From IMG/VR virus record IMGVR_UViG_3300013121_000022, positions 64,001-128,000 of that record: a DNA stretch of 64,000 bases; one strand, written 5' to 3'. A model generated the notes under the pieces. That model was given only the letters and a program-made list of their open reading frames with translations. It had not been told where the DNA came from and ran no database searches. This document shows positions 140 through 61,196 of the stretch, in pieces (positions within the stretch are counted from its first letter, which is position 1; each line of letters opens with the position of its first letter). The stretch is from a virus. Lineage: Duplodnaviria > Caudoviricetes. Both the position numbers and the translations under genes were made by a program.

Positions 140-503
140 AAGCCGCCTCTATCGGTTGACTACACTCATCGCACGTCAGGCATTTATCTTCGTAATTAAT
201 CTCACAGCCAACGATCAAGAATTGATCGTCATCTCCACCAGCGCAACGCGAAATATTTTTATTGCAACATGCCGGACACAATATTCCATCGTCTTTTGTA
301 ATGTAATACAAAGGATACCCGCCCGGAAAAGCGTAGGCATCGTATTCCAGTCCAATCGGCCTCCACTCGCTATAATGCAAGTCCCATTCCTTAGCGTCGG
401 TCAGCGAGTCCCATTCTTGACCAATTTGTAAAATTTGATTTTTGAGAGACGCCTTTTCTCCAGCATACACAACAACGATATTGGGTTGAATAATTTTAGT
501 CAT
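129..503 (-). CDS. conserved phage hypothetical protein (YAFPGGYP motif, CxxC pairs)
   Basis: ORF track 129..554; likely start MTKII at 503 overlapping the upstream stop; CPAC and CDEC motifs. Confidence 0.65.
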   Translation of the reverse strand: MTKIIQPNIVVVYAGEKASLKNQILQIGQEWDSLTDAKEWDLHYSEWRPIGLEYDAYAFPGGYPLYYITKDDGILCPACCNKNISRCAGGDDDQFLIVGCEINYEDKCLTCDECSQPIEAAYGE

Positions 504-1506
504 CGTCATCCTCATAATCATTATGATCTTCATAATCGTAACCGTCAGCCGCATTCAATCGATCATCTGGCAAATTGATACCACCAGCATTGCGCCACAA
601 TTCTTTTGGAATATCAAAGCGATGCAAGTCTCTCGCCTTATCAAAAGCGGCAACCGCCGAACTTAGATTGTGATATTGATCAAAATGACTAACACAAAAA
701 CCAATCGATGTCACCCTCAGCGTCTTGGGATTGACCAGTGGAATTGTCCAATTTGCACCACGATAACGAAAGGTCACTTTGATTGCGTCTCGATTAACAT
801 TAGACCAGTCAACCAAATCTGCGCCCATAAAGCCTAATTGATTGCGGATTTTTTCTTCCAGAGTCAGCGTCTTGGCATTTGCTTCGGCCAATGCATTCTT
901 TCTAGACGCTTCTTTTTCTTCGGCCAAAATTCTTTCGCGTTCAAATCGAATGCGATCTGCCAAAATTCTAAATGGTTGCTGATAATGTCGTGGCGCATGT
1001 GTGATGTCAAAAGAATCGTTGCTCTGCTCGATCTGATACTGTAATTCTTGTGCCCATCGATCAACTGCCAAGCCATAGGCAATATCAACAAACAAAAAGA
1101 TACCGCCATACACTCCAACAACCACTCTATCTAGTGGCTGAATATTTTGATCGACCAAGTGAATGAGACGGGGTTCGCCCTCCCAATTCTTTTGACGAGC
1201 ATCTGAATAGTTATATGGCAAGCACAACCACGTTTGCTCCCCGACTGGACAAACGGCGATAACGGTAAATTTTTTAAGTCCGTCTAAGTAATATTGAATT
1301 TCCACAAAATTAGCTTCATCAACGATCTGCGCCGATCTACGATCTATTGGCTGAACATTAAACCATCCGCGTCTTGTATCGTTGACGTGAAAACGAAATG
1401 GAGTTCCGTCCTGAACAACCATGATGTCCACCGATCCAACACTTGGAATAGGCGCAACAAATGGTTCTGGTGTTTGATTGGCAATGCGACGAAAAGCGTT
1501 TAGCAT
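496..1506 (-). CDS. hypothetical protein of a type found next to TROVE/vWA-like genes
   Basis: 336-aa ORF with GGAGA SD, directly downstream of the Ro-like gene; family association is from recall only. Confidence 0.7.
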   Translation of the reverse strand: MLNAFRRIANQTPEPFVAPIPSVGSVDIMVVQDGTPFRFHVNDTRRGWFNVQPIDRRSAQIVDEANFVEIQYYLDGLKKFTVIAVCPVGEQTWLCLPYNYSDARQKNWEGEPRLIHLVDQNIQPLDRVVVGVYGGIFLFVDIAYGLAVDRWAQELQYQIEQSNDSFDITHAPRHYQQPFRILADRIRFERERILAEEKEASRKNALAEANAKTLTLEEKIRNQLGFMGADLVDWSNVNRDAIKVTFRYRGANWTIPLVNPKTLRVTSIGFCVSHFDQYHNLSSAVAAFDKARDLHRFDIPKELWRNAGGINLPDDRLNAADGYDYEDHNDYEDDDD

Positions 1507-1521
1507 GTTTATCTCTCCAAT

Positions 1522-1562
1522 AAAAAAAGCACTGACAAATTGTAACTCTGTCAGTGCTTTTT
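1522..1562 (-). terminator. intrinsic terminator after the Ro-like gene
   Basis: aaagcactgaca...tgtcagtgcttt inverted repeat with a U-tract on the minus strand. Confidence 0.8.
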
Positions 1563-1569
1563 GTCAACG

Positions 1570-3042
1570 CTAGAAGCTGTACCCGACAATCTTGGGTAAT
1601 TCGGTGTCCGCAATGATGTCTGCAATATTGCGTGTCTTATCCCCCGCAAACCAACCAACAATTGCATCACCAATGTACGGATCGAACGGTGTAGTTGTCA
1701 AATCATAATGAACAACTCGAATACCGGCATCTTCAAGAACCTGAATGTCGATGCTTGGATTTCCATGCTCCGAAGATGGCAGCTGAATGATTGACAAATT
1801 CTGAACACCAAGCTCCCTAAAAGTCTTGTAAGCTTCGGTTGTGTTTGATTCGTGTAAATCTCCGATCCAAACGACATTGGTCAAATCAACACCCTTGTCG
1901 TGTGCCTTTCGCAGTGCTACGTGAACTAACGTGCCGCCCGTTGCGCGAAGTTTCGAGAAATCACGTTGAACCTGCGTCAACGATTGGCTTGAGAATTCCA
2001 TTTGCGTAGCTGATGTGTTGTACATAAAGACATTGACAGGTTCATCAGAGGCCGCAACAATGATCGGGACAGTTTCGCGTGTCGTTGCAATGCTAACTTC
2101 CTGCGAACCCGATTGATCACCGATAATGACAGGCGGATGTGCAATTCGTTGACCCTGTTGAACTGCCTTTTCAGTCGTCTGTTGAATGGCGGCATTGATT
2201 TCGGCGTCCGATCCCTGAGTGCTTTTACGCTTTTGCAGTGTCGCCACTGACTTGGTTGCACTGGCAATCAACTTCAAGTAATGCGCCTTGACCTCTGGAA
2301 TAGCAAACAATCCAGAGCGTTCAATCCACGAACGACTATTCAAAGCCTCTTGCGGCGACATGCGCGACAACAAAGCCAAACCAATAGCGGCATCAACCTT
2401 TGGCAAAATCGAAACGGCAATGCGATAAGGAATCTTATGCTTCATTACCATCTCGGCCTTTTTGACTGGATCGGTTTCTGCGACGATCATCTTCAAGGCC
2501 GCGATCTTTGATCCTTCCGGTGGAGTATCACTAAATAACAAAGCACTAACGTATTGATTGGTAGGGACATAAAAATACTTGATCAACCACGTCAAAGACT
2601 TGCGGTTTTGAATTGATACAGCATCCAATAGCGCGGGATTTGCCATTAGGCTATTGACCCAATCAATGGCAATTTTTCGCGCCTGTCGAGTAATTGGCCT
2701 GTCACTCTTACGAATGTAATCCAAGACGCGAATCAACTGAAACGCCTCCAGACCATCGATCTCTTTGTGAAAATCAATTTGATAAACACGCTGACCCAAA
2801 GCCAAAGCCCGACCTGCTTCCCGAAACTCTGGATACTCTGGATCGGCCTGCAACAAAGTCACAATTGCGGCCATGACCTGATCGTTGATCTTACTGGTTG
2901 AGGCGATGTGAACCAGAGCGCGACTGATGAAGTTTGGATCGTTGTTCAGTAAATCGGCGTATGTGCCAACTAGCGGAGCAAGATCGCGATGGGTAACACG
3001 AGTCATCGTCTGATAAATCTGGTTGTTATTTAGTTCTGTCAT
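1570..3042 (-). CDS. Ro60/TROVE-like RNA-binding protein with C-terminal vWA domain
   Basis: Helical N-terminal region with KIPYRIAV..RMSPQEALN (TROVE-like); vWA MIDAS elements GDQSGS, ATGGT, WIGD; adjacent tRNA-like RNAs; likely start MTELNN at 3042. Confidence 0.7.
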   Translation of the reverse strand: MTELNNNQIYQTMTRVTHRDLAPLVGTYADLLNNDPNFISRALVHIASTSKINDQVMAAIVTLLQADPEYPEFREAGRALALGQRVYQIDFHKEIDGLEAFQLIRVLDYIRKSDRPITRQARKIAIDWVNSLMANPALLDAVSIQNRKSLTWLIKYFYVPTNQYVSALLFSDTPPEGSKIAALKMIVAETDPVKKAEMVMKHKIPYRIAVSILPKVDAAIGLALLSRMSPQEALNSRSWIERSGLFAIPEVKAHYLKLIASATKSVATLQKRKSTQGSDAEINAAIQQTTEKAVQQGQRIAHPPVIIGDQSGSQEVSIATTRETVPIIVAASDEPVNVFMYNTSATQMEFSSQSLTQVQRDFSKLRATGGTLVHVALRKAHDKGVDLTNVVWIGDLHESNTTEAYKTFRELGVQNLSIIQLPSSEHGNPSIDIQVLEDAGIRVVHYDLTTTPFDPYIGDAIVGWFAGDKTRNIADIIADTELPKIVGYSF

Positions 3043-3071
3043 TGTTCTCTCTCTTTCTGGATTCAAGAATT

Positions 3072-3099
3072 AAAAAAGCCCGTAACATGTACGGGCTTT
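3072..3099 (-). terminator. intrinsic terminator ending the ncRNA cluster
   Basis: Minus strand reads AAAGCCCGTA-catgt-TACGGGCTTTTTT. Confidence 0.8.
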
Positions 3100-3110
3100 A
3101 ATTTAAGTGT

Positions 3111-3225
3111 CCAGCGTATAAAGTCTCTGAGGGTGTTACATAGTGGGACTTGAACCCACAACTAATTCTTAAAAGGAATCTGCTTTTCCGGTCAGCTTTA
3201 TGTGTCTCAGAATGGAATACGCTAG
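3111..3225 (-). ncRNA. Y-RNA-like tRNA mimic 1 (Lys UUU anticodon arm; acceptor stem extended into the shared module)
   Basis: D arm, GATTC-CTTTTAA-GAATT, GTGGG-TTCAAGT-CCCAC; the ends pair as CTAGCGTAT.TCC..TCTGAG / CTCAGA.GACTTT.ATACGCTGG. Confidence 0.75.
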
Positions 3226-3229
3226 AAGG

Positions 3230-3359
3230 CGGCAGATGTAGGAATCGAACCCACTGTTCTTTTTTGGAAAAAAAGGATTTAACCATTGTGTGCGTTTATC
3301 AGAAATACGCTACCCGTTAGGAAACGTATACGTTGAAAAACATTCAACTTTTATCTGCC
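3230..3359 (-). ncRNA. Y-RNA-like tRNA mimic 2 (Gly UCC-like arm; module inserted in the D region)
   Basis: GGCAGAT/ATCTGCC acceptor, GTGGG-TTCGATT-CCTAC T arm, ~50-nt hairpin insert containing ATACGT/GCGTATTTC. Confidence 0.75.
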
Positions 3360-3466
3360 GTATTAAGTTTGAAAAGTACGGTTGACCTATACACCGAAAG
3401 GTTATTACTACAAAACACTCGTCACATTTGAGCATCTTTCGATTACGCTTGACGAGTCTGATTTCT

Positions 3467-3592
3467 TGGGGCGAAGCTAGGAATCGAACCTAGAGCGTCT
3501 ATTTACAAGATAGATTGTGTGAGTGTGTCTGAAATACGCCGGGTTATTCCGGCGTATAAAGCGAAACACTTTTTTGTCCATTACACTTCGCC
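3467..3592 (-). ncRNA. Y-RNA-like tRNA mimic 3 (Thr UGU arm; module inserted in the D region)
   Basis: GGCGAAG/CTTCGCC acceptor, TCTAT-CTTGTAA-ATAGA, CTAGG-TTCGATT-CCTAG; insert CTTTATACGCCGG-aataac-CCGGCGTATTTC. Confidence 0.8.
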
Positions 3593-3624
3593 ATGTGTCG
3601 GCGTTTTTACTGCCAACGTTTGCA

Positions 3625-3652
3625 ATTATATCCAGTTATTACTTCTTGTCAA
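3625..3652 (-). promoter_or_regulatory. sigma70-type promoter for the ncRNA cluster
   Basis: TTGACA-16 nt-TATAAT on the minus strand, ~30 nt upstream of RNA 3. Confidence 0.75.
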
Positions 3653-3929
3653 TAGGCAAATTTTTCTCTGTAAAACTTTGACGTTCTGCCTTTTTTTGCT
3701 CGTACTCGGCAATCAACTGGTCGTAATTTGTCGCTAAAAACGCATAACCAAAAACATTCCGACCACAGATATTGGTTAGCGCCGATTGAAATCGATCAAA
3801 CGGAACTGCTAAATATTCTTGATACAACTGAAAGTCACAAATTTGTTCGTCTGTCCAAGTGCTCCAATCAGTTGTGTTGCCCATGTGTATTGCTTCTTGT
3901 TTAGTCAGCTGGTGTTTAAGGTTGAACAT
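3639..3929 (-). CDS. hypothetical protein
   Basis: 96-aa ORF, tightly overlapping in the operon. Confidence 0.65.
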   Translation of the reverse strand: MFNLKHQLTKQEAIHMGNTTDWSTWTDEQICDFQLYQEYLAVPFDRFQSALTNICGRNVFGYAFLATNYDQLIAEYEQKKAERQSFTEKNLPIDKK

Positions 3930-4251
3930 AATTCATCTCCACATCACGCGCAAACCAAAAATCTTCTGTTTCTTCAAAGCCGCAATACGGACATCGAATC
4001 AATTCAATCAACTTCATGGTTTCAAATTCATTCGAATGATCGATGCGATAATTCCATAGACTCATAAACGTGTCTTCAGTTACTTCACATTTAGCGGCGT
4101 CCGAAAATAAATGTCCGTCTTGATCTGTAGCTGCGACAAAAAACACCCAAATTTGCGGTAGTTCACCTGCTGGAATTGACTTTCGACAATAACAATTCTT
4201 TCTACCGCAAACAGGGTGTTGAATTTTGCGACACTTCGGGCAATCAACCAT
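3916..4251 (-). CDS. Zn-finger protein
   Basis: CPKC, CGRKNCYC and CPYC motifs. Confidence 0.65.
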   Translation of the reverse strand: MVDCPKCRKIQHPVCGRKNCYCRKSIPAGELPQIWVFFVAATDQDGHLFSDAAKCEVTEDTFMSLWNYRIDHSNEFETMKLIELIRCPYCGFEETEDFWFARDVEMNYVQP

Positions 4252-4507
4252 ACTTGACTAAAGGCGCAATCAGGATCGATCCAGACTCTGGACGAGTAAC
4301 GGCGAAACGCTGTCCAGAAAGTGTGATTGGATTGTTCTGTGCCTGAGTTTCGTTCAGGAAATTCTGAACCAACGTCAACAGATGCGCGTCAGCAATCATT
4401 GGATCGGTTGTGACTTCATCCAAATAGAATCGCTCGAATTCACGATCTGGCGTATGTACCATAACCTGAACGTTTCCAAGTGTATTTGCAAGAATCAAGT
4501 CTGTCAT
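4244..4507 (-). CDS. small hypothetical protein ending in Gly (possibly ubiquitin-like)
   Basis: 87 aa, C-terminus RPESGSILIAPLVKYG. Confidence 0.6.
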   Translation of the reverse strand: MTDLILANTLGNVQVMVHTPDREFERFYLDEVTTDPMIADAHLLTLVQNFLNETQAQNNPITLSGQRFAVTRPESGSILIAPLVKYG

Positions 4508-4932
4508 TTTTTTCTCTCCCATCTAATTGCTAGTGTCGTTCCCGCCACTGGCTGAGTATCAAATTGAGCGTGGGCATAAAGCATCGAACAATATACAGCC
4601 GCGCCCAAATTTGTTTCTTCGTTTTTCAATACATGTGTTCCCCATTCCGATTTACGAATAATCATCTTTTGAAATTCGGAATAAGGATGTGGATAGACAA
4701 TGTTCAATAACGCGGCCTTGTTCCAAATGCGGGTTCTTACGATCAACTTATATCCATAGTGTTTTGCAACTAAACCGTGTATATAAGGTACAACCGCTGG
4801 ATCGGTGTAATCGTTTGTCTGTCCCTGAAAAGCTTTCTTGACCGTCAAATACAAAATCCAATCAAATTTATTTAGATTGATTTCGAGAACTCGACGGGCA
4901 TAATCTCTCATTGAATCGTATACACAGTTCAT
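4504..4932 (-). CDS. hypothetical protein
   Basis: 142-aa ORF with ATGA-type overlaps. Confidence 0.6.
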   Translation of the reverse strand: MNCVYDSMRDYARRVLEINLNKFDWILYLTVKKAFQGQTNDYTDPAVVPYIHGLVAKHYGYKLIVRTRIWNKAALLNIVYPHPYSEFQKMIIRKSEWGTHVLKNEETNLGAAVYCSMLYAHAQFDTQPVAGTTLAIRWERKK

Positions 4933-5073
4933 GAGAGGATTATATTTACAATATGAAATTTGTCAAGAGCCATGCACACCCCAAGCAACCACCACAGGCG
5001 CAAACTACAATTACGGCAACAGTTACACCCATAATGATATTGGTCTTGCGATCTCCGCCGACAACACAAGTGA

Positions 5074-50829: not shown

Positions 50830-50853
50830 GTTTGTAATTCCTTTCTTGAAGTG

Positions 50854-50927
50854 TACTCCCGACAGGACTTGAACCTGCAACCTTGAGATTAAAAGTCTCT
50901 TGCTCTACTCTATTGAGCTACGGGAGC
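50854..50927 (-). tRNA. tRNA-Lys(UUU)
   Basis: Cloverleaf, anticodon loop CTTTTAA. Confidence 0.9.
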
Positions 50928-50932
50928 ATAGG

Positions 50933-51005
50933 TGCATCCGGTGGGACTTGAACCCACAACCTTGAAATTAAGAGTTTCCTGCTCTGCCAATTGAGCTACG
51001 GATAC
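50933..51005 (-). tRNA. tRNA-Lys(CUU)
   Basis: Cloverleaf, anticodon loop CTCTTAA. Confidence 0.9.
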
Positions 51006-51153
51006 ATCGATCTGCGCCGATCATAACACATTGGTCGGTTAGTTGTCAATCAACAACTGGAGTGGAATACACTAACACAACGCCCAAAGTTGGTTGAACT
51101 TCTTTGCAATACACTGCCGAGATCGACAGTTACGATAAACAACACTTCCTGAT

Positions 51154-51651
51154 TCATGTTTCATCCTCCATTTCGATTTCACCACTTTCCAGTGTTGTAA
51201 ATTTTACACCTTGCGCGTAATACTTTACAACTCCCGCATGGCGTTGTAGTTGAACCATGCCGCCATACTCTTTGTAATAGAATGCAACCAGTTCGGTTGC
51301 TAACTGATTGTGTTCTTGGAATTTACATTCATAAAATTTTCCGTCCGGCATCATCCAACCATTAACTTCTTTTTTGAATGGTGTTGGCGTGGGCGGAAAA
51401 TCATTGTAAAACTGAACATACACCGACTCGTATTCATTATTGTACATTGTGTATGTATTAAGAACCTGCAAAGTCGCAGGTTTGATTGTGTAACTCGATC
51501 CAACTCCCCAATACATTCGAGATGGAAACATGGACTTGAAATGAACCAAGTATGGGCCAACTTCACAAGGTGGACATTCTGGATTGGCGTATGTTTCGAT
51601 AAACTTCACAGCATAAATGGTTTCTGTTTTCATGCGGTTATCATAGATCAA
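51154..51651 (-). CDS. hypothetical protein
   Basis: GWMMPDGKFYEC..H motif. Confidence 0.6.
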   Translation of the reverse strand: MIYDNRMKTETIYAVKFIETYANPECPPCEVGPYLVHFKSMFPSRMYWGVGSSYTIKPATLQVLNTYTMYNNEYESVYVQFYNDFPPTPTPFKKEVNGWMMPDGKFYECKFQEHNQLATELVAFYYKEYGGMVQLQRHAGVVKYYAQGVKFTTLESGEIEMEDET

Positions 51652-51708
51652 AAAAGTATTTGTGTCAAGTGTTTGACAAACCCAAAAAATTCAAGTATCA
51701 TTGCCGCC

Positions 51709-52017
51709 ATGAGACAAGTGAGCATCGTATTTATCAAGACGGGAGATCAAAACTCTGACATCCGCCGACTCAAATTGATTTTGGCACAGTCCAAAAAGGG
51801 GCAAGGCGCTGATGGACTGTCTATTGATTTTCGAGAATCGTTCAACGACACATCGGGTGTTGTGGTTGATTTTGAAAATGTTTCGATTGGTGTAGACACA
51901 ATCGATGTATGGCGCAAACGCGGATACTCGGTTTCAGAAGATCAGGTACAAGAAATTCAACCAGAAATATTGACGGACGCGAAACCTGAAACACGAATAG
52001 ATTATAATGATTTTTAG
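51709..52017 (+). CDS. hypothetical protein
   Basis: MRQVS start just after TTGACA...TATCAT promoter (possibly leaderless). Confidence 0.5.
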   Translation: MRQVSIVFIKTGDQNSDIRRLKLILAQSKKGQGADGLSIDFRESFNDTSGVVVDFENVSIGVDTIDVWRKRGYSVSEDQVQEIQPEILTDAKPETRIDYNDF

Positions 52018-52021
52018 AAAT

Positions 52022-52094
52022 GCGCCTGTGGTGTAATGGTCAACATGACACTCTTATAAGGTGTGGATTGAAGGTTCGAGTCCTTTCGGGCGTA
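52022..52094 (+). tRNA. tRNA-Ile(UAU)
   Basis: ACACT-CTTATAA-GGTGT anticodon arm, full cloverleaf. Confidence 0.85.
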
Positions 52095-52098
52095 CAAT

Positions 52099-52170
52099 GG
52101 CGAGGTAGCTAAGCGGTTAAGGCAACTGTCTGCAAAACAGTGATGAAGGGTTCGACTCCCTTTCTCGCCT
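52099..52170 (+). tRNA. tRNA-Cys(GCA)
   Basis: Anticodon loop CTGCAAA, U73. Confidence 0.9.
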
Positions 52171-52172
52171 CT

Positions 52173-52244
52173 GCTTCCGTAGTTCAAAGGATAGAATACC
52201 AGTTTCCTAAACTGCCAATCTCGGTTCGAGTCCGAGCGGAAGCA
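52173..52244 (+). tRNA. tRNA-Arg(CCU)
   Basis: Anticodon loop TTCCTAA. Confidence 0.88.
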
Positions 52245-52262
52245 CAAGAAAGAGAACTATTA

Positions 52263-53357
52263 ATGAAAATCAAAACCGATGTATTACTCTCCGCACTATC
52301 TGATACACTCAAAGCAACAAAAGAAAACGCAACAAACCCAACGCTGGCCTACATCAAAATAGAAAAAGACACAGACTCAAATCGCTGTTCGTTAGTTGGA
52401 ACGAACATGGAGTTTACCGTTGGCCGAACTATCGATGTTGAGGGAAATGAATCTGTTTCGCTGTTGATTGATGGCAGAAAAATTCACGACATCATTTCAT
52501 CTGTGCCTGACGAGTACATCACCGTTACTATTCTATCTCAAAAAATTAAAGTGTCGAGTTCGATTAGCGAACTTACTCTATCAACTTTGGTTGCTGATGA
52601 TTTTCCAAAAGTTGACAACGGTGGAGAACGTGCCGCACTGGTAAGCTCAGATTCTTTGGCGCTTTGGAGAGAGGCGATGTGGTGTACATCTTCTGATGTC
52701 CATGATACCTTTAAGAATGGTGTCAACCTAACGTTTGATAAGTCGGGTAAATCCATTCATGTTGAAACAGGGAATGGATTTAGATGCTCTATTCTGAAAT
52801 GTCCGGCGCAAGAGGTTTATGGCAACTTCAATGCTCTTGTTCCAGTAAACAACTTGATCAAAATGATGTCATTGGCAGTTGAAGACGTATTTGGCATTTT
52901 TGTCTCTAGCTCTTATATTGTCTTTCAATCCAAAAATGGTTTTACTCGATCTGCGCTGATCGAAGCAAAGTTTCCAGAATGGTTGTCAAAAATCAAAAAG
53001 ACTACTTTGGTCGGAATCAAAGTTGACCGAGATTCAACCCTGCAATCTCTCAAGTCGGCCTTGATTGTTGCTAAGGATTCAGCGAACAAGGTGATCTTGA
53101 CGTGGGACAATACTCAAATTCATATTCACGCCGAATCGGAAACCGGAAACGTAGATTTGCATGTTCCGCACAAAGGCTTGATTGGAGATCAGAAAGTCTC
53201 TTTCAAGATTGGTTTTGACTGTATATCGTTGCGCGATGCGCTGACGTTCGGCGGAGATGTTACTATGTGGTTGACTTCTAGTGATCTGTATGCTCGTTTT
53301 AGTCGAGAAAAAGATGATTGGATTGGAGTAGTTATGCCACGAAAGGTGTCACAATGA
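52263..53357 (+). CDS. dnaN: DNA polymerase III beta sliding clamp
   Basis: P.LAYIKI..GTNME, DDFP, TGNGFR, LIEAKFP, C-terminal VMPR. Confidence 0.88.
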   Translation: MKIKTDVLLSALSDTLKATKENATNPTLAYIKIEKDTDSNRCSLVGTNMEFTVGRTIDVEGNESVSLLIDGRKIHDIISSVPDEYITVTILSQKIKVSSSISELTLSTLVADDFPKVDNGGERAALVSSDSLALWREAMWCTSSDVHDTFKNGVNLTFDKSGKSIHVETGNGFRCSILKCPAQEVYGNFNALVPVNNLIKMMSLAVEDVFGIFVSSSYIVFQSKNGFTRSALIEAKFPEWLSKIKKTTLVGIKVDRDSTLQSLKSALIVAKDSANKVILTWDNTQIHIHAESETGNVDLHVPHKGLIGDQKVSFKIGFDCISLRDALTFGGDVTMWLTSSDLYARFSREKDDWIGVVMPRKVSQ

Positions 53358-53971
53358 ACAATACTACTTTGGTTGTTACTTTGCTGGATGAATCTGGATC
53401 GATGCTTGAACAAGACAAATCAGAAGTGGCAGTTCTAGCCTTCAATCAATTTGTCAAGGATCAAAACAATATTCCCGGATGCTATTTTTCGTTACATGTG
53501 TTTTCAGATCGCCAGAAGATCGCGGGTACTCCGCGCACCATTCCCCATCTTCGGACTATATTTGAAAATGTTCCGTCAAATATAGTCAAATTCACACGCG
53601 ATCAGTATGATCCAGAGGGTTCTACTCCATTGTACGATGCGTTATCGGATTTGATTGATTTGATTGGTATGCGATTGTCTCTGTTGCCAGAATATGATCG
53701 TCCTTCTAAAGTTATTTTTGTGGTTATCACAGACGGTCAGGAAAATTCCAGTAAGCATACAAAGTATGCGGACTTGATGGAAAAAATTAAACATCAACAA
53801 GAAAAGTATTCTTGGGAGTTTGTTTTTGCGATGTCTGGTGTTACATATAACGAATTTCAAAGCGTCGCTAATTTCTCGACAACATTTTCTGCGTCTGACT
53901 CCAAAACGGTTGAAGCGAGTTATGCGAGTTCATCGCGATATGTCACCAGTTCAAGAACCGATAAACACTAA
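53354..53971 (+). CDS. vWA domain protein
   Basis: LLDESGSM, GSTPLYDA and ITDGQENSS motifs. Confidence 0.88.
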   Translation: MNNTTLVVTLLDESGSMLEQDKSEVAVLAFNQFVKDQNNIPGCYFSLHVFSDRQKIAGTPRTIPHLRTIFENVPSNIVKFTRDQYDPEGSTPLYDALSDLIDLIGMRLSLLPEYDRPSKVIFVVITDGQENSSKHTKYADLMEKIKHQQEKYSWEFVFAMSGVTYNEFQSVANFSTTFSASDSKTVEASYASSSRYVTSSRTDKH

Positions 53972-53972
53972 A

Positions 53973-54554
53973 ATGCGATCTCGGCGAATTGTTTTTACGT
54001 CCGATCAACATTTCGGGCACGCGAATATCATCAAGTATCAACATCGTCCATATAAAAATGTGGACGAGATGGATTCTGCCTTAATTGAATCGTGGAACGC
54101 AAAAGTCGATCACGATGATATTGTGTTTCATCTTGGAGATTTTACACTTGGCGATGAACGACAGGCCGCAAGATATTTCTCTCGACTGAACGGGGCGATT
54201 GGCGTTGTACGCGGCTCGCACGATGACAGATGGTATAAAAATTCGGTTTACTATCGATCTCGATCTGGAATTCCAGTAAAGTTACTCGGAGATCGTTTCG
54301 ACTATTCATCTGCGATGATCGGTGAGGACGGGCGTAATCTGTTGATCGTGATGTCTCATTATGCAATGGCGCGATGGCCGATTTCGCATTATGGATCGCT
54401 ACATGTATTTGGACACTCACATGGAAACTTTGAAGGCATCGGAAAATCAGTTGATGTTGGGGTTGACGTTTATCCAAACCTATTGTATATTGAGGAAGTA
54501 GTCGAAATCTTGGCGAAAAAATCATCACCTGAGAACCATCTGAGAAAGAGTTGA
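53973..54554 (+). CDS. calcineurin-like metallophosphoesterase
   Basis: SDQHFGH, HLGD, GSHD and GHSH motifs. Confidence 0.9.
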   Translation: MRSRRIVFTSDQHFGHANIIKYQHRPYKNVDEMDSALIESWNAKVDHDDIVFHLGDFTLGDERQAARYFSRLNGAIGVVRGSHDDRWYKNSVYYRSRSGIPVKLLGDRFDYSSAMIGEDGRNLLIVMSHYAMARWPISHYGSLHVFGHSHGNFEGIGKSVDVGVDVYPNLLYIEEVVEILAKKSSPENHLRKS

Positions 54555-55126
54555 AAATGGGACAGCGATATTACTTTCCGAACGTCAAAAACTGGCAAGA
54601 TGCCTTGAATAGCTTGGATTTGGGGTTACAACATTTTGGGTTTACCATGAAGTTGTCCGGCGTCATGTTTCAGGGTATGGGCAAGACGGTTGTGCTTGTG
54701 TTGCCTTCCTCTGAACTTCCTCATGCCGCAGTTGAAGTTGTCGAACTTGATGCCGAGCAAGCGGCGGCATTGGTCAAGCAAACCGATCAACCCGAAGTGT
54801 TGGCTGGACACGATGGACAAGACAAGGTATGGGTTCGTAAACTTCAATATGAAGTGTCGGGTCATACACAACAACAAGTTTGGTGGGCGGATCACTTTAC
54901 CTGCCAGTATTGTGGACGTGGATTGCCGGAAGTTCAGTTGACCATCGATCATTTTCATCCGCTGGACTTGGGCGGAGTAAACGATTCGAGCAACTATCTG
55001 ACAGCTTGCAAGAAATGCAATAAGAATAAGGGCAATACGCCTGCTTTGAAGTGGTGCGCCGACAATCATCTGGATTACAATTTGCTGGTTGATTATTTGC
55101 GCCAGAGAAAATTAACTCGTAAGTGA
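54551..55126 (+). CDS. protein with C-terminal HNH domain
   Basis: CQYCG...TIDHFHP...N..TAC..CN..K. Confidence 0.8.
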   Translation: MKMGQRYYFPNVKNWQDALNSLDLGLQHFGFTMKLSGVMFQGMGKTVVLVLPSSELPHAAVEVVELDAEQAAALVKQTDQPEVLAGHDGQDKVWVRKLQYEVSGHTQQQVWWADHFTCQYCGRGLPEVQLTIDHFHPLDLGGVNDSSNYLTACKKCNKNKGNTPALKWCADNHLDYNLLVDYLRQRKLTRK

Positions 55127-55140
55127 TACAATAGCGAGAT

Positions 55141-55213
55141 GCCGCTATAGTTCAGTTGGCAGAACGTCATCTTGGTAAGATGAAGGTGGTGGGTTCGATC
55201 CCCACTGGCGGCT
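55141..55213 (+). tRNA. tRNA-Thr(GGU)
   Basis: Anticodon loop TTGGTAA. Confidence 0.9.
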
Positions 55214-55227
55214 CTTTGGAGTATCTA

Positions 55228-55440
55228 ATGGACGTTATCAATTTAGCAACCGGACAATGTGTAAGCTATAGTTTATCCGAAAAACAGGCTTTGATTGCGG
55301 CAGTTCAACAGTTTGATCGTAAAAACTGGCAGACTTGGAACTATCCAACTCCAGATCAAGTTGTATTTATTGAGGGACAACATACAATCGCATTGGGCGA
55401 TTGGTGTGTACTCAAAACAGAAAGAGAGACAGCATGTTAG
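55228..55440 (+). CDS. hypothetical protein
   Basis: GGAG SD and MDVINL start after the tRNA. Confidence 0.55.
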   Translation: MDVINLATGQCVSYSLSEKQALIAAVQQFDRKNWQTWNYPTPDQVVFIEGQHTIALGDWCVLKTERETAC

Positions 55441-55682
55441 TTTATCGAGTATCAGTCAAGGCAGTGGTCACAGAAGAAAACGAAAAGAATACCGATCAGG
55501 TCAAGATAAAATTTGTGGACATCGGCATTTACGATGTTCAGGCCAACGACTATAATGCGGCGGCTGAAAAAGCTTATGAGGTTGCGAAAGACAATCCAAC
55601 TTACAAAGAAATTACAGCTGACGTTGAAGTTGAAGTGGTCGCAACCAATATCAAACTTCTGTCAAAGCCAGATGAATTGTAG
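55434..55682 (+). CDS. hypothetical protein
   Basis: MLVYRV start overlapping the upstream ORF. Confidence 0.55.
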   Translation: MLVYRVSVKAVVTEENEKNTDQVKIKFVDIGIYDVQANDYNAAAEKAYEVAKDNPTYKEITADVEVEVVATNIKLLSKPDEL

Positions 55683-55811
55683 TTCTTGACAGATTGAATT
55701 TTTGAGATTAGAATGTAAATATCTTTGCTATCAACGTTTCTAGGTCATCAGGACTTAGCGCATAAACGAAACGGACGAGTGATAGTGAGCGTACTCACTC
55801 AAAACTTGAAC

Positions 55812-56231
55812 ATGAAAAATAACTTGAAAACTCCATGCAGATACTGTCCGTTTAGATCGTCGTCTTTACCGAGATGGTTGGGCGGTATTGAACCCGAACA
55901 ATTTATCAATGATGCATTGAGCGAGTCTGGAAATGCATGTCACATTGATCTCGAACATCAACGTGAATTTTGGCAGAACGAGCAGGACAGTGGTCAACTT
56001 AACAATGTGGATGACAGTATTATCGATGAGTTGATCGAATCTGATGTTGAACAATGCGCTGGAGCACTAGCTTTTGGTTCGATTATGGGCAAGGTATATC
56101 GAAATAAAAACAAAGAAGCGCAACGCAGGATGGTCGGAAACGTTGACGGTATAATGAACTATAAAGAATTTTTAGTTCATCATGCCAGTACAGATAATTT
56201 CAGGCGCAAGTCTGATGGAAAAAGATTTTGA
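55812..56231 (+). CDS. Cys-rich hypothetical protein
   Basis: PCRYCPFR...ACH...QCAGAL motif. Confidence 0.65.
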   Translation: MKNNLKTPCRYCPFRSSSLPRWLGGIEPEQFINDALSESGNACHIDLEHQREFWQNEQDSGQLNNVDDSIIDELIESDVEQCAGALAFGSIMGKVYRNKNKEAQRRMVGNVDGIMNYKEFLVHHASTDNFRRKSDGKRF

Positions 56232-56264
56232 CAAAAACCATCCGTAAAATATTGCGATGGTTAT

Positions 56265-56351
56265 GCAATCGTGGTGGAACTGGTATACACGCAAGCCTAA
56301 GAAGCTTGTTCCCGTTATAAAGGATTGGAGGTTCAAATCCTCTCGATTGCA
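56265..56351 (+). tRNA. tRNA-Leu(AAG)
   Basis: CAAGC-CTAAGAA-GCTTG, long variable arm, A73. Confidence 0.85.
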
Positions 56352-56429
56352 CAAAGGTGTTGACTAGATATATATAGTCGCCTTGCTGTTGAGGCCAGAT
56401 TCCGAAAACACTGGAACAACAGTATACCC

Positions 56430-56515
56430 GCATGAGTGGCGAAATGGTAGACGCGCAATGCTCAGAACGTTGTGACCTTAAATAAGTCGTAAGGGTTCGA
56501 GTCCCTTTTCATGCA
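56430..56515 (+). tRNA. tRNA-Leu(CAG)
   Basis: Anticodon loop CTCAGAA, long variable arm. Confidence 0.88.
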
Positions 56516-56572
56516 CAGACTTATGTACCACGCGTACAAAAAGTTACAGAGTCCCGCAATGGACTCCGGTTA

Positions 56573-56655
56573 GCCGATATGGTGGAATGCAGACACACTA
56601 CGTTTAGAGCGTAGCGATCTAAAAAATCGTGCAGGTTCAAATCCTGTTATCGGCA
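56573..56655 (+). tRNA. tRNA-Leu(UAG)
   Basis: CTACG-TTTAGAG-CGTAG. Confidence 0.88.
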
Positions 56656-56738
56656 CAAGACTGATGTTCAAATAATCCGTATCCAGATTCTTTTGAACTG
56701 AGTCACCGATGCAATCGGCGGATAACGGTTGCATCAAC

Positions 56739-56822
56739 GCCTGATTGGTGGAATGGTAGACACACGACACTTAAAATGTCGCGATCTCAACAATCGTAAG
56801 AGTTCGAGTCTCTTATCAGGCA
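56739..56822 (+). tRNA. tRNA-Leu(UAA)
   Basis: CGACA-CTTAAAA-TGTCG. Confidence 0.88.
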
Positions 56823-56840
56823 CACGAAAGGTTTATAAAT

Positions 56841-57434
56841 ATGACAATCAAAGCAATCGTCTTTGATCTTGATGGGGTTTTGGTGGATACGCCTGAACTT
56901 CACTATGAAGCTCTCAACCAAGCGTTGGGGCTTTTTGGTTTTAATATCTCTCGACAAGATCACGATTCAAAATTCAATGGCCTGCCAACTCGGACTAAAC
57001 TGGAAATGCTAAACGTTGATCCGGCGATTCGCGGATTGGTAATGGAACTAAAACAACAATATACTCGGCAGGCAATTTCCAAAATTCAACCAAACTATCA
57101 AAAGATTATGATGCTGAGAAGTCTATCGTGGCGCTATCATCTTGGAGTTGCTTCTAACGCACTCCAAGACACCTGTTATTCGATATTGGAAGCAGCTCGA
57201 CTGGATTCGTATTTTACAACTGTGTGGGGCGGAGATGGGGTGAAAAAAACAAAGCCCGATCCAGAGATATATAGGAAGATTATCAAAAAACTTGAAGTAC
57301 AACCAGATCAATGCTTGGTTCTGGAAGACACTCAATACGGTGTTCAGGCCGCACTAGGTGCTGGTGCTCAATGCATTCAAGTAACCTATCCTCAAGTTCA
57401 TAGTGGATTATTCGTGCGAAAGGGCTTATTATGA
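56841..57434 (+). CDS. HAD-family phosphatase
   Basis: FDLDGVLVD, ASN, KPDPEIY and LED motifs. Confidence 0.92.
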   Translation: MTIKAIVFDLDGVLVDTPELHYEALNQALGLFGFNISRQDHDSKFNGLPTRTKLEMLNVDPAIRGLVMELKQQYTRQAISKIQPNYQKIMMLRSLSWRYHLGVASNALQDTCYSILEAARLDSYFTTVWGGDGVKKTKPDPEIYRKIIKKLEVQPDQCLVLEDTQYGVQAALGAGAQCIQVTYPQVHSGLFVRKGLL

Positions 57435-58183
57435 ATATAGTGATTCCCATGTCGGGCGCGGGAAAAAGATTTTTGGATGCAGGCTATACCGATCCAAAAC
57501 CATTCATTTTAGTCGATGGTCAACCCATGATTATGCGTGTGACCAACAACGTCTCGGTTAGATCATCCAAAAATCATAACAACATAGTTTGGCTGGTTAG
57601 AACTGAACACCTTGATCGCGCTCAAGATATTCAGCAGGAAATGCGAGATCGCAATATCATTCCCAATGCAACCTACAACATCATAAAAGTTTCCGGCCTC
57701 ACACAAGGCGCGGCGTGTACTGTATTAATGGCCTCTGGTATTATCAATAACGATCAACCTTTAATTATTGCTAACTCCGATCAACTGACCGATTCTTCGG
57801 TTGATGGATTTGTTGAGTATTGTCAAAAGAACAACGCGGATGGCGGTATTATCACGTTTCGATCAAGCGCCGACAAATGGAGTTATGTTCGTTTGGATAA
57901 GCAAGGAATATTGGTTGATGAAGTTGCTGAAAAAGTTGTCATTTCAAATCTTGCCACTCTTGGAATTTACTATTTTCGGCGTGGTTCTGATTTTTGTTCA
58001 GCGGCTGTGAAATCTATCAGGTATAACATGCGGCATCGCAATGAATTCTATGTTGCACCTGTATTCAATGAAATGATTTTGCTTGGCAAGCGAATTTATC
58101 ACTACGAAATTCCAGATTATTGTGCACATGGACTTGGAACTCCCGAAGACCTTGAAAGGTATTTACTGCATGGACGCCAATAA
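57431..58183 (+). CDS. sugar nucleotidyltransferase-like protein
   Basis: IPMSGAGKRF...PKP, NSDQ, AEK, EFYVAP and LGTPEDL motifs. Confidence 0.88.
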   Translation: MNIVIPMSGAGKRFLDAGYTDPKPFILVDGQPMIMRVTNNVSVRSSKNHNNIVWLVRTEHLDRAQDIQQEMRDRNIIPNATYNIIKVSGLTQGAACTVLMASGIINNDQPLIIANSDQLTDSSVDGFVEYCQKNNADGGIITFRSSADKWSYVRLDKQGILVDEVAEKVVISNLATLGIYYFRRGSDFCSAAVKSIRYNMRHRNEFYVAPVFNEMILLGKRIYHYEIPDYCAHGLGTPEDLERYLLHGRQ

Positions 58184-58898
58184 CTCATATACACAAATGC
58201 AGAAAAAATATTACGAAGAAAACGCGACGATAATGGCAGTGGAGGATCATCGCGGCCACAATAACAATCCAGATTATTACGGAATTCTATTATCAGACAT
58301 CACAACCAATCCAGAATACTGGACTGGTAAAACCGCCCTAGACTTTGGTTGTGGAACTGGACGAAATATTGCCAATCTGTATCGTTTAGCAAAGTGGAAA
58401 TTTGTCGATGGTTGCGACATTGCGCGAAACAACTTGTATGAAGCACATCGTTTATTGACGGAACGTGGTGTTTCCGGTTTTACACTTTACCCCGTCTCAG
58501 GCGTTGATCTTGGTGGTATCCCAAGTAAAAAATATGACTTTGTAATGTCAACCATTGTTCTTCAACACATCGCCGTGTGGTCAATTCGACTGAGTATTTT
58601 AACTGACATCTTTCGAGTGATGAAATCGGGCGGATTATTCTCGTTTCAAGTTGTTAAATATCCGTTGCCGCGAGATCGATATAATATCGCTGACTATCAT
58701 GAAGACAAATGGGATGCGCCAAATACAAATGGAGGGTACGATTTTAGCGTAGATAACGAACAAGATTTGATAAATGACTTGACACGCATTGGGTTTGAAG
58801 TGATTGAAACAATAAGCAGACCTGAATGGGAATATATCAATCAAGAATACGCTCACAATAACAATCGTTGGGTATTTGTTAAGGCGCGTAAACCATGA
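58170..58898 (+). CDS. class I SAM-dependent methyltransferase
   Basis: ALDFGCGTGRN and YDFVMSTIVLQH motifs. Confidence 0.88.
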   Translation: MDANNSYTQMQKKYYEENATIMAVEDHRGHNNNPDYYGILLSDITTNPEYWTGKTALDFGCGTGRNIANLYRLAKWKFVDGCDIARNNLYEAHRLLTERGVSGFTLYPVSGVDLGGIPSKKYDFVMSTIVLQHIAVWSIRLSILTDIFRVMKSGGLFSFQVVKYPLPRDRYNIADYHEDKWDAPNTNGGYDFSVDNEQDLINDLTRIGFEVIETISRPEWEYINQEYAHNNNRWVFVKARKP

Positions 58899-59653: not shown

Positions 59654-60282
59654 TGAACACCCTCATTGTCATCGCGCATCACAATGGATCGCGGTACATT
59701 CCGGCTTTGCTGGATAGCTTGAAGTGGCATGATCGGAAAGATATTGTCGTTATAGATACTGGCTCAACGTCCAACGAACTCGATCTATTGCCACAAGATA
59801 TACAGGTCGATGAAATTTATGGTGGATATTGTGTTGGCGCATATAAATGGGCATATCGATGGTATCCTGATTACGACTCGTATTTTTTTATGCACGACTC
59901 CATGAGGGCAAAAACAAATTTTCTTCCGGCCTTTCAGTCAAAAGGCGATGTTGTTGCATGGATCGATTTTCCAATGGATTATGGTGAACAAGAACGCGAG
60001 TACATTGAATCGCAGTACGGGAAGGATAATCATTCGCCCAACGCAATCTTTGGGCCAATTTTTTACGCCACTCATCAGGCAATGCAGGGTCTGGCGAACA
60101 ACAATAAATTTCCGCGCAACCCTAAAAATCGAGCGGAACTTTGCGCCTCTGAACGTGCTTTTGCCATAGCTTTTCATCAGTGTGGATTTCGAGTCGATCA
60201 TCTTGAAGAATATGACAACCAGCGTTTGGACATTAGTCGAGATTACGTGTTGTTTGATAAGTTCAGACCAAATCGAGTATAA
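59653..60282 (+). CDS. GT2-like glycosyltransferase
   Basis: VVIDTGS, FMHDS and ERAF motifs. Confidence 0.7.
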   Translation: MNTLIVIAHHNGSRYIPALLDSLKWHDRKDIVVIDTGSTSNELDLLPQDIQVDEIYGGYCVGAYKWAYRWYPDYDSYFFMHDSMRAKTNFLPAFQSKGDVVAWIDFPMDYGEQEREYIESQYGKDNHSPNAIFGPIFYATHQAMQGLANNNKFPRNPKNRAELCASERAFAIAFHQCGFRVDHLEEYDNQRLDISRDYVLFDKFRPNRV

Positions 60283-60284
60283 AT

Positions 60285-60527: not shown

Positions 60528-60537
60528 GACAACTAAC

Positions 60538-61182: not shown

Positions 61183-61196
61183 TATCAACGTGATCG

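What the first reader, a model, noticed from the sequence alone, without database searches (positions are those of the whole stretch)
1570..3652. Ro60/TROVE-like protein preceded by three tRNA-mimic RNAs that share a grafted module: a candidate new Y-RNA class
Seen: a consensus promoter (3625-3652) drives three RNAs (3592-3467, 3359-3230, 3225-3111). Each has an acceptor stem, a T arm and an intact anticodon arm (UGU, UCC, UUU). All three carry the same extra module: a GCGUAU/AUACGY helix next to an asymmetric loop (UYC opposite an (A/G)C..U strand). In RNAs 2 and 3 the module is a hairpin inserted in the D region. In RNA 1 it is formed by the 5' and 3' ends and extends the acceptor stem, keeping the same orientation relative to the tRNA body. 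A terminator and a TROVE/vWA-like gene follow. Known: bacterial Ro60 (Rsr) genes lie beside Y RNAs, and YrlA RNAs mimic tRNA with the Ro-binding stem in place of the anticodon arm. Inference: this is a distinct family with its own binding motif and retained anticodons. The RNAs could be Ro-tethered decoys for anticodon nucleases or adaptors for RNA repair. I do not recognise it as a described family.
Basis: partly seen in the sequence, partly recalled or inferred. Interest (0 to 1): 0.92.

Follow-up and report, generated by a model that had tools for sequence, protein, structure and literature searches.

The report
Phage Ro60-like protein, handle-tagged tRNA mimics
A 172-kb uncultured phage encodes a very diverged relative of the RNA-binding ring protein Ro60 and, just upstream, three small RNAs that are almost complete tRNAs carrying one shared "handle". 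Related phages keep the same arrangement, so this is probably an uncatalogued branch of the Ro60/Y-RNA particles, with function still unknown.

Summary
A perfect sigma-70 promoter (3652-3625) precedes three structured RNAs on the minus strand (3592-3467, 3359-3228, 3226-3110). A terminator (3099-3075) and a 490-aa ORF (3042-1570) follow. All three RNAs have canonical T arms and 7-nt anticodon loops (UGU, UCC, UUU), and all carry one module: a GCGUAU/AUACGC helix, an internal loop, a second helix and an ACACA(A/U) tail. The module is a hairpin between the D and anticodon arms in the first two RNAs, and it forms the 5'/3' ends of the third.

The ORF has no Pfam TROVE or DUF2828 hit, but its model matches Ro60 over its full length (Z 18.6, 421-433 residues), and its vWA MIDAS residues are invariant. 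Seven other phage or metagenome loci (26-40% identical proteins) carry the same RNA arrays. Their helices covary and their loop sequences are locus-specific. No Rfam Y RNA or YrlA model matches.

A 336-aa protein containing an OB fold is conserved directly downstream.

Verdict: a new variant of the Ro60-Y RNA particle. I found no paper describing it. This scan has met sister systems on other DNA. Binding, RNA processing, charging and biological role are untested.

The parts
3625..3652 (-). sigma-70-type promoter of the RNA array (TTGACA, 16 nt, TATAAT)
   Evidence: 12 of 12 matches, the best site in 400-4400
3467..3592 (-). RNA 1: tRNA mimic. It has a 7-bp acceptor stem (GGCGAAG/CUUCGCC), a 3-bp D arm, the internal handle, an anticodon arm (UGU), a canonical T arm and the tail C-CA
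   Evidence: tRNA 35.2 bits with a 68-nt insert; z -4.9
3515..3569 (-). Handle of RNA 1 in hairpin form: helix H2 (GUGUUUC/GACACAC), internal loop (GCUUU / UUCA), helix H1 (AUACGCCGG/CCGGCGUAU) and the tail UCACACAA
3418..3457 (-). Spacer hairpin followed by a U-rich run, between RNA 1 and RNA 2. Role unknown
   Evidence: weak abiF-like match, E 0.29
3228..3359 (-). RNA 2: tRNA mimic. It has a 7-bp acceptor stem (GGCAGAU/AUCUGCC), a D-position hairpin (3348-3332), the internal handle helix H1 (3329-3305), the tail ACACAA, an anticodon arm (UCC), a canonical T arm and the tail G-CC
   Evidence: tRNA 20.6 bits, below gathering; z -3.3
3110..3226 (-). RNA 3: a complete cloverleaf (3203-3138, anticodon UUU) with a 5-bp acceptor stem. 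The stem is extended by the handle, which the RNA's own ends form: H1 3226-3217 with 3119-3110, H2 3212-3206 with 3131-3125
   Evidence: (tRNA 45.2 bits)
3075..3099 (-). Intrinsic terminator closing the RNA array
1570..3042 (-). 490-aa Ro60-like protein: a helical TROVE-like ring plus a vWA domain with MIDAS residues D309, S311, S313, T371 and D395
   Evidence: Pfam, PHROGs and the TROVE and DUF2828 models are silent
1523..1567 (-). Terminator-like hairpin with a U7 tail after the Ro60-like gene, overlapping a promoter-like site (TTGACA, 17 nt, TACAAT) for the next gene
496..1506 (-). 336-aa conserved partner protein: N-terminal beta-barrels including an OB fold (residues 76-144), a long helix, a C-terminal beta domain and an acidic tail
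   Evidence: (found downstream of the Ro60-like gene in 11 loci)

Best explanation
The locus most likely encodes a phage ribonucleoprotein of the Ro60/Y-RNA kind.

**Shown by computation**
- The three RNAs are made as one transcript from a strong promoter.
- They have tRNA-like ends of the kind found between tRNA genes in phage arrays.
- They share one handle: helix H1 with a CGU/ACG core, an internal loop, helix H2, and a single-stranded ACA-rich tail.
- The 490-aa protein has the Ro60 fold.
- Gene order and handle are conserved and covary across distant phages.

**Inferred**
- tRNA-maturation enzymes cut the transcript apart. The phage carries its own RNase P RNA (per earlier scan notes).
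- The Ro60-like ring binds the handle, as Ro60 binds the conserved stem of Y RNAs.
- The OB-fold partner encoded next door probably joins the particle.
- Each RNA then displays an almost complete L-shaped tRNA, anticodon loop included, to some tRNA-recognising factor.

My preferred role, at lower confidence, is in the phage-host conflict over tRNA: bait, sensor or tether for a tRNA-directed nuclease or repair or decay enzyme.
For: **Protein**
- The model (pLDDT 81) gives only Ro60 entries as its top 10-12 matches. Foldseek E is 1.8e-9 to 1.9e-6 with TM 0.55-0.62 over 520-557 columns.
- VIA-align gives Z 16.9-18.6 with 408-433 residues aligned across model residues 1-484. Chains that hold only a vWA domain come next, at Z 15.5 or below.
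- A sequence profile finds phage phiLo Ro60 (6e-7) and human Ro60 (3e-6) as its best PDB hits.
- The MIDAS residues are invariant.

**RNAs**
- Evidence.

**Conservation**
- Loci L001, L002, L004, L006, L011, L012/13 and L137 have 2-6 handle-bearing RNAs. These loci encode proteins 26-40% identical to the window's. Their layout is promoter, RNA array, terminator, Ro60-like ORF.
- H1 flanks covary, with 4-5 double changes per pair, around an invariant CGU/ACG core.
- Hairpin-form handles: 79% of cells are paired, against 24-37% when the partner is slid. The covariation score is 0.44 against 0.18, reached by 0 of 500 shuffles.
- H2: cognate duplex energy is -9.05 against -4.81 kcal/mol for non-cognate pairs, reached by 0 of 5000 permutations.
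- Loop sequences are uniform within a locus and differ between loci, as expected for a site read by the locus's own protein.

**Partner**
- The 336-aa gene follows the Ro60-like gene in 11 loci.

**Precedent**
- Ro60 genes sit beside their Y RNAs in bacteria and phages (PMC4201824, PMC12135203).
Against: - No binding, transcript, processing or phenotype datum exists.
- Pfam TROVE and DUF2828 models do not detect the protein, so homology to Ro60 rests on fold and a weak profile hit.
- A terminator separates the RNAs from the ORF, so co-expression is not guaranteed.
- Loci L003 and L010 have no RNA directly upstream. L005 and L007-L009 have a different single stem-bounded RNA.
- The handle could be read by the OB-fold partner or by a host protein instead.
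- An RNA-first motif scan of viral contigs returned only loci without the protein, which I take to be chance matches.
Confidence: 0.72

Rival explanations
1. RNAs 1 and 2, and their internal-handle counterparts elsewhere, are working tRNAs that carry an extra arm. [quoted passage not shown] The handle would be a tag that lets the Ro60-like ring escort, protect or regulate phage-made tRNAs.
For: - Acceptor stems are 7 bp and G-C rich.
- T arms are canonical.
- Anticodon loops are 7 nt with U33 and R37.
- The 3' tails read N73-CC. Six of nine internal-handle RNAs end ACCU, the same junction seen after a genuine phage tRNA-Lys(CUU).
- M. smegmatis YrlA is cleaved by RNase P and receives CCA (PMC4201824).
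Against: - Acceptor stems all begin GG regardless of anticodon, and they lack the identity pairs of the phage's own tRNA-Thr and tRNA-Gly (both GC-start, U73).
- Related loci carry anticodons unusable or odd in bacteria (UUA twice, AAG, AGU, AUU, AAC).
- The phage already has normal tRNAs with UGU, UCC and UUU.
- Terminal-handle RNAs such as RNA 3 have no free acceptor end.
Confidence: 0.15
2. The handle is the binding site of another protein, either the conserved OB-fold partner or a host factor. The Ro60-like ring would act on other (misfolded or damaged) RNAs, and the gene neighbourhood would reflect a shared pathway only.
For: - The 336-aa gene is as tightly linked as the RNAs and contains an OB fold, though the support is only middling (Z about 7).
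- The conserved single-stranded ACA-rich tail would suit an OB fold.
- Ro60 also binds misfolded RNAs through its central hole (PDB 2i91 title).
Against: - In every characterised Ro60 system the adjacent small RNAs are the ring's own ligands (PMC4201824, PMC12135203).
- L011 has an extra small ORF between array and gene, and L137 has a roughly 350-nt gap, yet both keep the array next to the Ro60-like gene.
Confidence: 0.1
3. The RNAs are tRNA genes interrupted by an intron or insertion, or decaying tRNA pseudogenes, with no dedicated function.
For: tRNA models hit all three, and the phage has many tRNA genes.
Against: - The roughly 55-nt insert is far too small for a group I intron and lies at position 26, not in the anticodon loop.
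- The same module forms the termini of RNA 3.
- The module is conserved with compensatory changes in eight loci whose proteins are only 26-40% identical.
- The array has a dedicated consensus promoter and terminator.
Confidence: 0.03

Closest known systems
Bacterial and mycobacteriophage Rsr (Ro60) with YrlA/YrlB Y RNAs (Chen et al. 2014, PMC4201824; Wang et al. 2018, 10.1101/312249)
   Same: - A Ro60-fold ring protein is encoded beside one or more small RNAs.
- The RNAs combine a protein-binding stem with a tRNA-like domain that has a canonical T arm.
- Several RNAs occur per locus.
   Different: - YrlA is circularly permuted (T arm, closed acceptor-like stem, D arm), and the Ro60-binding stem replaces the anticodon arm. 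Here the arm order is normal and the anticodon arm is kept.
- The handle is attached at the acceptor end or at position 26. One relative, in L006, has it at the variable region.
- The GNCGAAN0-1G motif is absent from the handle.
- No Rfam hit.
- The protein is not detected by Pfam TROVE.
Thermus phage phiLo Ro60 with Yrl1/Yrl2 (PDB 9KOP, 9L5Y; PMC12135203)
   Same: - A phage-encoded Ro60 with two partner RNAs directly upstream.
- It is the best sequence-profile and Foldseek hit of the present protein.
   Different: - Yrl1 and Yrl2 were defined by a CGAA motif in a stem-bulge-stem and are not described as tRNA-shaped.
- phiLo Ro60 is annotated as a TROVE domain protein.
- Identity in the structural alignment is 13-14%.
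Deinococcus radiodurans Rsr-Yrn1-PNPase (RYPER)
   Same: The working model is the same: the ring binds the RNA's terminal stem, and the other end of the RNA tethers an effector. Yrn1 can be drawn with an anticodon-like arm (PMC4201824).
   Different: - The Yrn1 loop has 6 nt and there is no full cloverleaf.
- No PNPase link has been tested here.
- The conserved OB-fold partner is not part of RYPER.
Phage Bas63 gp130, a Ro60-like protein that counters the Ppl defence (PhageMaP preprint, 10.1101/2024.10.10.617714)
   Same: - A phage protein recognised as Ro60-like only by structure.
- It lies next to tRNA genes, and the authors suggest some of those may be Y RNAs.
- It gives a counter-defence phenotype.
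   Different: - tblastn of the 490-aa protein against the 50,697 phage records found only two records, both uncultured or enrichment viruses, so no Bas63 match.
- No RNA family was defined in that work.
Dictyostelium Class I RNAs (PMC7919456)
   Same: [quoted passage not shown] In most related loci that motif reads YUACAAAC. The Class I motif as I recall it, CCUUACAGCAA, shares the CUUACA stretch, but I could not confirm its letters in the paper.
   Different: - Class I RNAs are eukaryotic, 42-65 nt, with no tRNA part and no known Ro60 link.
- The motif match is only partial.
- This is a lead taken from earlier scan notes, not tested here.

Membership tests
Ro60 / TROVE family | Ring of HEAT-like helical repeats closed by a C-terminal vWA domain | tested here: met
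   Full-length matches to Ro60 from frog, human, D. radiodurans and phage phiLo: Z 16.9-18.6, rmsd 4.3-5.9 A, 408-433 residues aligned.
Ro60 / TROVE family | vWA MIDAS motif (DxSxS ... T ... D) | tested here: met
   D309, S311, S313, T371 and D395 are invariant in 8 sequences.
Ro60 / TROVE family | Detected by the Pfam TROVE model (PF05731) or its relative DUF2828 (PF11443) | tested here: not met
   One search gives no Pfam family at E 0.1. Searches give no hit in the whole phage at E 1. The only sequence link is a profile-to-PDB hit at 6e-7 covering the last TROVE helices plus vWA.
Ro60 / TROVE family | Binds adjacent small RNAs through a conserved stem | not testable with these tools
   Needs RIP or EMSA. 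Indirect support only: conserved synteny and locus-specific handle loops.
YrlA (Rfam RF02553) | Match to the covariance model | tested here: not met
   cmscan found no Y RNA or YrlA match in 3000-3700 at E up to 10, in L001 at E up to 1, or in L002-L016 at E up to 0.1.
YrlA (Rfam RF02553) | Permuted tRNA-like domain (T arm, acceptor-like stem-loop, D arm) with the Ro60-binding stem in place of the anticodon arm | tested here: not met
   normal arm order and intact 5-bp anticodon stems with 7-nt loops in all three RNAs. One RNA in L006 (2644-2779) is permuted but still keeps an anticodon-like arm.
YrlA (Rfam RF02553) | GNCGAAN0-1G motif in the Ro60-binding strand | tested here: not met
   The handle strands read CGUAUUYC and YUUUAUACG. 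GGCGAAG occurs once, but as the acceptor strand of RNA 1, and the other loci do not share it.
YrlA (Rfam RF02553) | Encoded next to a Ro60 gene | tested here: met
tRNA (RF00005) | Cloverleaf with a 7-bp acceptor stem, free NCCA end, D, anticodon and T arms of standard size | tested here: inconclusive
   - RNA 1 scores 35.2 bits, but only by skipping 68 nt.
- RNA 2 scores 20.6 bits, below the gathering score.
- The RNA 3 core scores 45.2 bits but has a 5-bp acceptor stem buried in a longer stem.
- ARAGORN calls none.
tRNA (RF00005) | Aminoacylation and decoding | not testable with these tools
   Needs charging assays. Acceptor identity pairs differ from the phage's own tRNA-Thr and tRNA-Gly.

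The most novel reading that the evidence does not exclude
The internal-handle RNAs are matured like tRNAs (RNase P cut, CCA end) and are charged, or at least enter tRNA pathways. The Ro60-like ring and its OB-fold partner hold them by the handle. The phage would thus field a private set of protein-escorted tRNA look-alikes. These would soak up, sense or survive host anticodon-loop nucleases, which makes the anticodon loop itself the displayed, selected part.
Probability: 0.15. Interest if true: 0.85.

Novelty: new variant of a known kind. Interest (0 to 1): 0.62.

Why it matters
- Ro60 and Y RNAs are conserved from bacteria to humans, yet the job of the tRNA-like part of bacterial Y RNAs is still unknown.
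- This system offers a cleaner natural experiment. One handle is attached to nearly whole tRNAs at two or three different points. Anticodon loops keep their architecture while the triplets drift. A second conserved protein sits next door.
- The protein family is large (about 2,200 clusters at E 1e-3 or better, 432 at 1e-30 or better), is invisible to Pfam, and is carried by phages.
- One structure-only Ro60-like phage protein has already been linked to escape from a defence system.
- Defining the handle gives a sequence signature for finding these particles. It also gives an obvious set of mutants for binding and counter-defence tests.

Tried and rejected
- **Phage record searches.** Megablast of 1000-5000 against phage records found no match. 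tblastn of the protein against phage records found two weak hits only.
- **Family libraries.** Pfam and PHROGs give nothing for the Ro60-like protein or the 336-aa partner.
- **Partner identity.** phmmer and a profile against PDB gave nothing meaningful for the partner. A word-based homologue search for the partner found only itself. ESM Atlas gave no usable hit.
- **Cellular genomes.** The genome-contig scan found no relative in cellular genomes.
- **RNA-first scan.** I scanned viral contigs with CGTGACC, a 6-20 nt gap, then YTTACAAAC. The 120 loci held after that scan contained neither the Ro60-like nor the partner gene. By my estimate a 16-base pattern is swamped by chance matches in a collection of that size, so this says nothing either way.
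- **Sequencing runs.** No RNA holder was listed, and no run at all was listed. Expression and RNA ends could not be examined.
- **Extra handle copies.** A crude regex scan of the whole 172.5-kb genome found no convincing additional copy.
- **Complex prediction.** The Ro60-like protein with the 336-aa partner scored ipSAE 0.60 (runs 0.60, 0.60, 0.55). The best of three controls scored 0.00. Partner pLDDT was at least 72, and the runs agreed in at least 54% of contacts. The tool's verdict was "weak support". In its calibration, 58 of 80 solved complexes and 2 of 110 mismatched pairs reached the mark. Only 7 of those 80 solved complexes scored 0.60 or under, as did both mismatches that passed.
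- **Intron or pseudogene reading.** Rejected for the reasons given under rival explanations.
- **Derivation from the phage's own tRNAs.** Read by eye, the RNA 3 core is not closely similar to the phage tRNA-Lys(UUU).
Full report
**What is in the sequence.**
On the minus strand a perfect sigma-70 consensus promoter (3652-3625, 12 of 12) is followed by about 540 nt without a credible ORF. An intrinsic terminator follows (3099-3075), then a ribosome-binding site and a 490-codon ORF (ATG 3042 to stop 1570). The non-coding stretch holds three structured RNAs.

Rfam's tRNA model hits 3592-3469 at 35.2 bits, but only by skipping 68 nt where the D arm lies. It hits 3358-3231 at 20.6 bits, below the gathering score, and 3203-3138 at 45.2 bits for a complete cloverleaf core. 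ARAGORN calls none of them, although it finds 14 ordinary tRNAs elsewhere in the window. Each RNA folds better than shuffled controls (z -4.9, -3.3, -2.9).

Reading directly:
- All three have canonical T arms (GGUUCGAUUCC or GGUUCAAGUCC).
- All three have 5-bp anticodon stems.
- Their 7-nt loops are CUUGUAA, UUUCCAA and CUUUUAA, with U33 and A37. The anticodons are UGU, UCC and UUU.

**The shared module.**
The word GCGTATTYC occurs three times in the 64-kb window, all within these 330 nt on this strand. Each copy pairs with an AUACG strand. I call the whole module a handle. It has four parts:
- Helix H1, with a CGU/ACG core.
- An internal loop, UUCA or UCCA opposite GCUUU or ACUUU.
- A second helix, H2.
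- A single-stranded ACACAA or ACACAU tail.

The handle sits differently in each RNA:
- **RNA 1:** a hairpin (3569-3515) inserted between a 3-bp D arm and the anticodon arm.
- **RNA 2:** the H1 hairpin lies at the same place, but H2 is replaced by a neighbouring local hairpin (3348-3332).
- **RNA 3:** the RNA's own ends form the handle (H1 3226-3217 with 3119-3110; H2 3212-3206 with 3131-3125). The handle continues through an A/C-rich internal loop into a 5-bp acceptor stem.

So the handle is the same object in two circular permutations, in the same orientation relative to the tRNA body.

**The protein.**
Pfam, PHROGs and direct PDB sequence search are silent. The Pfam TROVE and DUF2828 models find nothing anywhere in the phage. 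A profile of eight homologues gives phage phiLo Ro60 (6e-7) and human Ro60 (3e-6) as best PDB hits. That alignment runs from the last TROVE helices into the vWA domain.

The AlphaFold model (pLDDT 81) matches only Ro60 entries in its top ranks:
- Foldseek: TM 0.55-0.62 over 520-557 columns.
- VIA-align: Z 16.9-18.6, rmsd 4.3-5.9 A, 408-433 residues aligned.
- vWA-only chains follow at Z 15.5 or below.

The MIDAS residues D309, S311, S313, T371 and D395 are invariant. An exhaustive profile search finds 2,207 cluster representatives at E 1e-3 or better and 432 at 1e-30 or better. Sampled members show at most vWA-type Pfam hits. This is therefore a large, uncatalogued, Ro60-fold family. It meets the structural definition of Ro60 but not the sequence-model definition.

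**Related loci.**
Protein-based scans returned two viral and fifteen metagenomic loci. Seven distinct loci (L001, L002, L004, L006, L011, L012/13, L137) encode proteins 26-40% identical to the window's. They share the layout promoter, 2-6 small RNAs, terminator, Ro60-like gene. Their RNAs carry the same handle in both permutations.

An anchored alignment of 24 instances shows:
- An invariant CGU core opposite ACG. In L012/13 the opposite strand is GCG, so the U pairs with G.
- A loop that is uniform within each locus but differs between loci: window CGU-AUUYC; L006 CGU-RMCCC; L011 CGU-RACAC; L001 CGU-GCCCG; L013 CGU-GGCUC.
- A tail reading YUACAAAC in most loci.

Covariation is strong:
- H1 flanks have 4-5 compensatory double changes per pair.
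- In nine hairpin-form handles, 79% of cells pair, against 24-37% in slid controls. The covariation score is 0.44 against 0.18, reached by 0 of 500 shuffles.
- H2 strands pair with their own partners far better than with partners from other loci (-9.05 against -4.81 kcal/mol; 0 of 5000 permutations).

Other features of the arrays:
- Internal-handle RNAs have GG-starting 7-bp acceptor stems and N73-CC tails, mostly ACCU. The next RNA starts within a few nucleotides.
- The same ACCUAU junction follows a genuine tRNA-Lys(CUU) in this phage. The RNAs therefore look built for release by tRNA-processing enzymes. Earlier scan notes report a phage-encoded RNase P RNA at 61157-61574.
- Anticodon loops in the relatives keep C32/U33 and R37/A38, but their triplets are odd: UUA twice, AAG, AGU, AUU, AAC, UAU.
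- One L006 RNA is a fully permuted tRNA (T arm, closed acceptor, D arm, anticodon-like arm) set in the same handle.
- L005 and L007-L009 have a different single stem-bounded RNA upstream. L003 and L010 have none immediately upstream.

**A second conserved protein.**
The 336-aa ORF at 1506-496 follows the Ro60-like gene in 11 loci (27-33% identity). It matches no family. Its model (pLDDT 79) has N-terminal beta-barrels, a long helix and a C-terminal beta domain. Residues 76-144 resemble OB folds such as ribosomal S17, IF1/eIF1A and the S1 or cold-shock domains of RNase II/R, at Z about 7. That is only middling support.

**How it most likely works.**
The computational results establish a dedicated transcription unit of handle-tagged tRNA look-alikes, a Ro60-fold protein and an OB-fold partner. 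They also show conservation of all three with covariation, and loop sequences that are locus-specific.

The following steps are inferred:
- The ring protein binds the handle, as Ro60 binds the terminal stem of Y RNAs.
- The partner joins the particle.
- The tRNA-shaped part engages a tRNA-recognising factor.

The kept anticodon-loop architecture, together with drifting and partly unusable triplets, argues that the loop shape matters and decoding does not. That fits a bait, sensor or tether in the conflict over tRNA better than it fits working tRNAs. This last step is a guess. Precedents are RYPER in Deinococcus, phiLo Ro60 with host PNPase (PMC12135203), and Bas63 gp130, a structure-only Ro60-like protein that counters the Ppl defence (10.1101/2024.10.10.617714).

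**Comparison and novelty.**
It works like a Ro60-Y RNA particle. It is not a YrlA, for three reasons:
- No covariance-model match.
- No permuted arm order and no loss of the anticodon arm.
- No GNCGAA motif in the handle (PMC4201824 for the definitions).

Full-text searches found no description of this protein family, handle or array. Earlier notes of this scan describe sister systems on other DNA: DUF2828-type Ro60-like proteins with a stem-plus-ACAGCAA handle in Felix O1-like, crAss-like, huge and giant viruses. So the general theme has been met before within the scan. The present family differs in its protein (no DUF2828 hit) and in its longer two-helix handle. I rate it a new variant of a known kind.

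Noticed in passing
window 496-1506 (-): A 336-aa protein of no known family is conserved immediately downstream of the Ro60-like gene in 11 loci. Its model shows beta-barrels, including an OB fold at residues 76-144, a long helix and an acidic tail.
   Followed up: yes
window 3418-3457 (-): In the 107-nt spacer between RNA 1 and RNA 2 there is a hairpin (ACUCGUCA ... UGACGAGU) followed by GUUUUGU. It gives only a weak abiF-like Rfam match (E 0.29). It could be a partial terminator or a fourth small RNA.
   Followed up: no
window 1523-1567 (-): A terminator-like hairpin with a U7 tail lies right after the Ro60-like stop codon. It overlaps an 11/12 promoter-like site, so the partner gene may have its own start.
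   Followed up: partly
window 4504-4932 (-) and 4244-4522 (-): The 142-aa ORF has weak relatives near the Ro60-like gene in L005, L006, L008 and L013 (tblastn 7e-7 to 3e-3). The 92-aa ORF ends in Tyr-Gly. Other readers suggest a ubiquitin-like cassette here. Pfam finds nothing for either ORF.
   Followed up: partly
L006 2644-2779: This handle-bounded RNA has an interior that is a circularly permuted tRNA: T arm, acceptor stem closed by UUCG, D arm, anticodon-like arm. That gives a third attachment point for the same handle.
   Followed up: partly
L005 2830-2925; L007, L008, L009 about 2815-2915: These Ro60-like genes are preceded by a single RNA of about 95 nt, closed by a long terminal stem. 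It has a T-arm-like hairpin but no cloverleaf. This is a different RNA partner type within the same protein family.
   Followed up: no
L001 3800-3915: A fourth RNA in the L001 array has a terminal stem with UGUG/CACA in place of CGUG/CACG and has no tRNA part.
   Followed up: no
window 50853-62696: The phage also has ordinary tRNAs with the same three anticodons as the mimics: Lys UUU at 50853-50927, Gly UCC at 62128-62199 and Thr UGU at 62484-62556. Their acceptor stems are unrelated to those of the mimics.
   Followed up: partly
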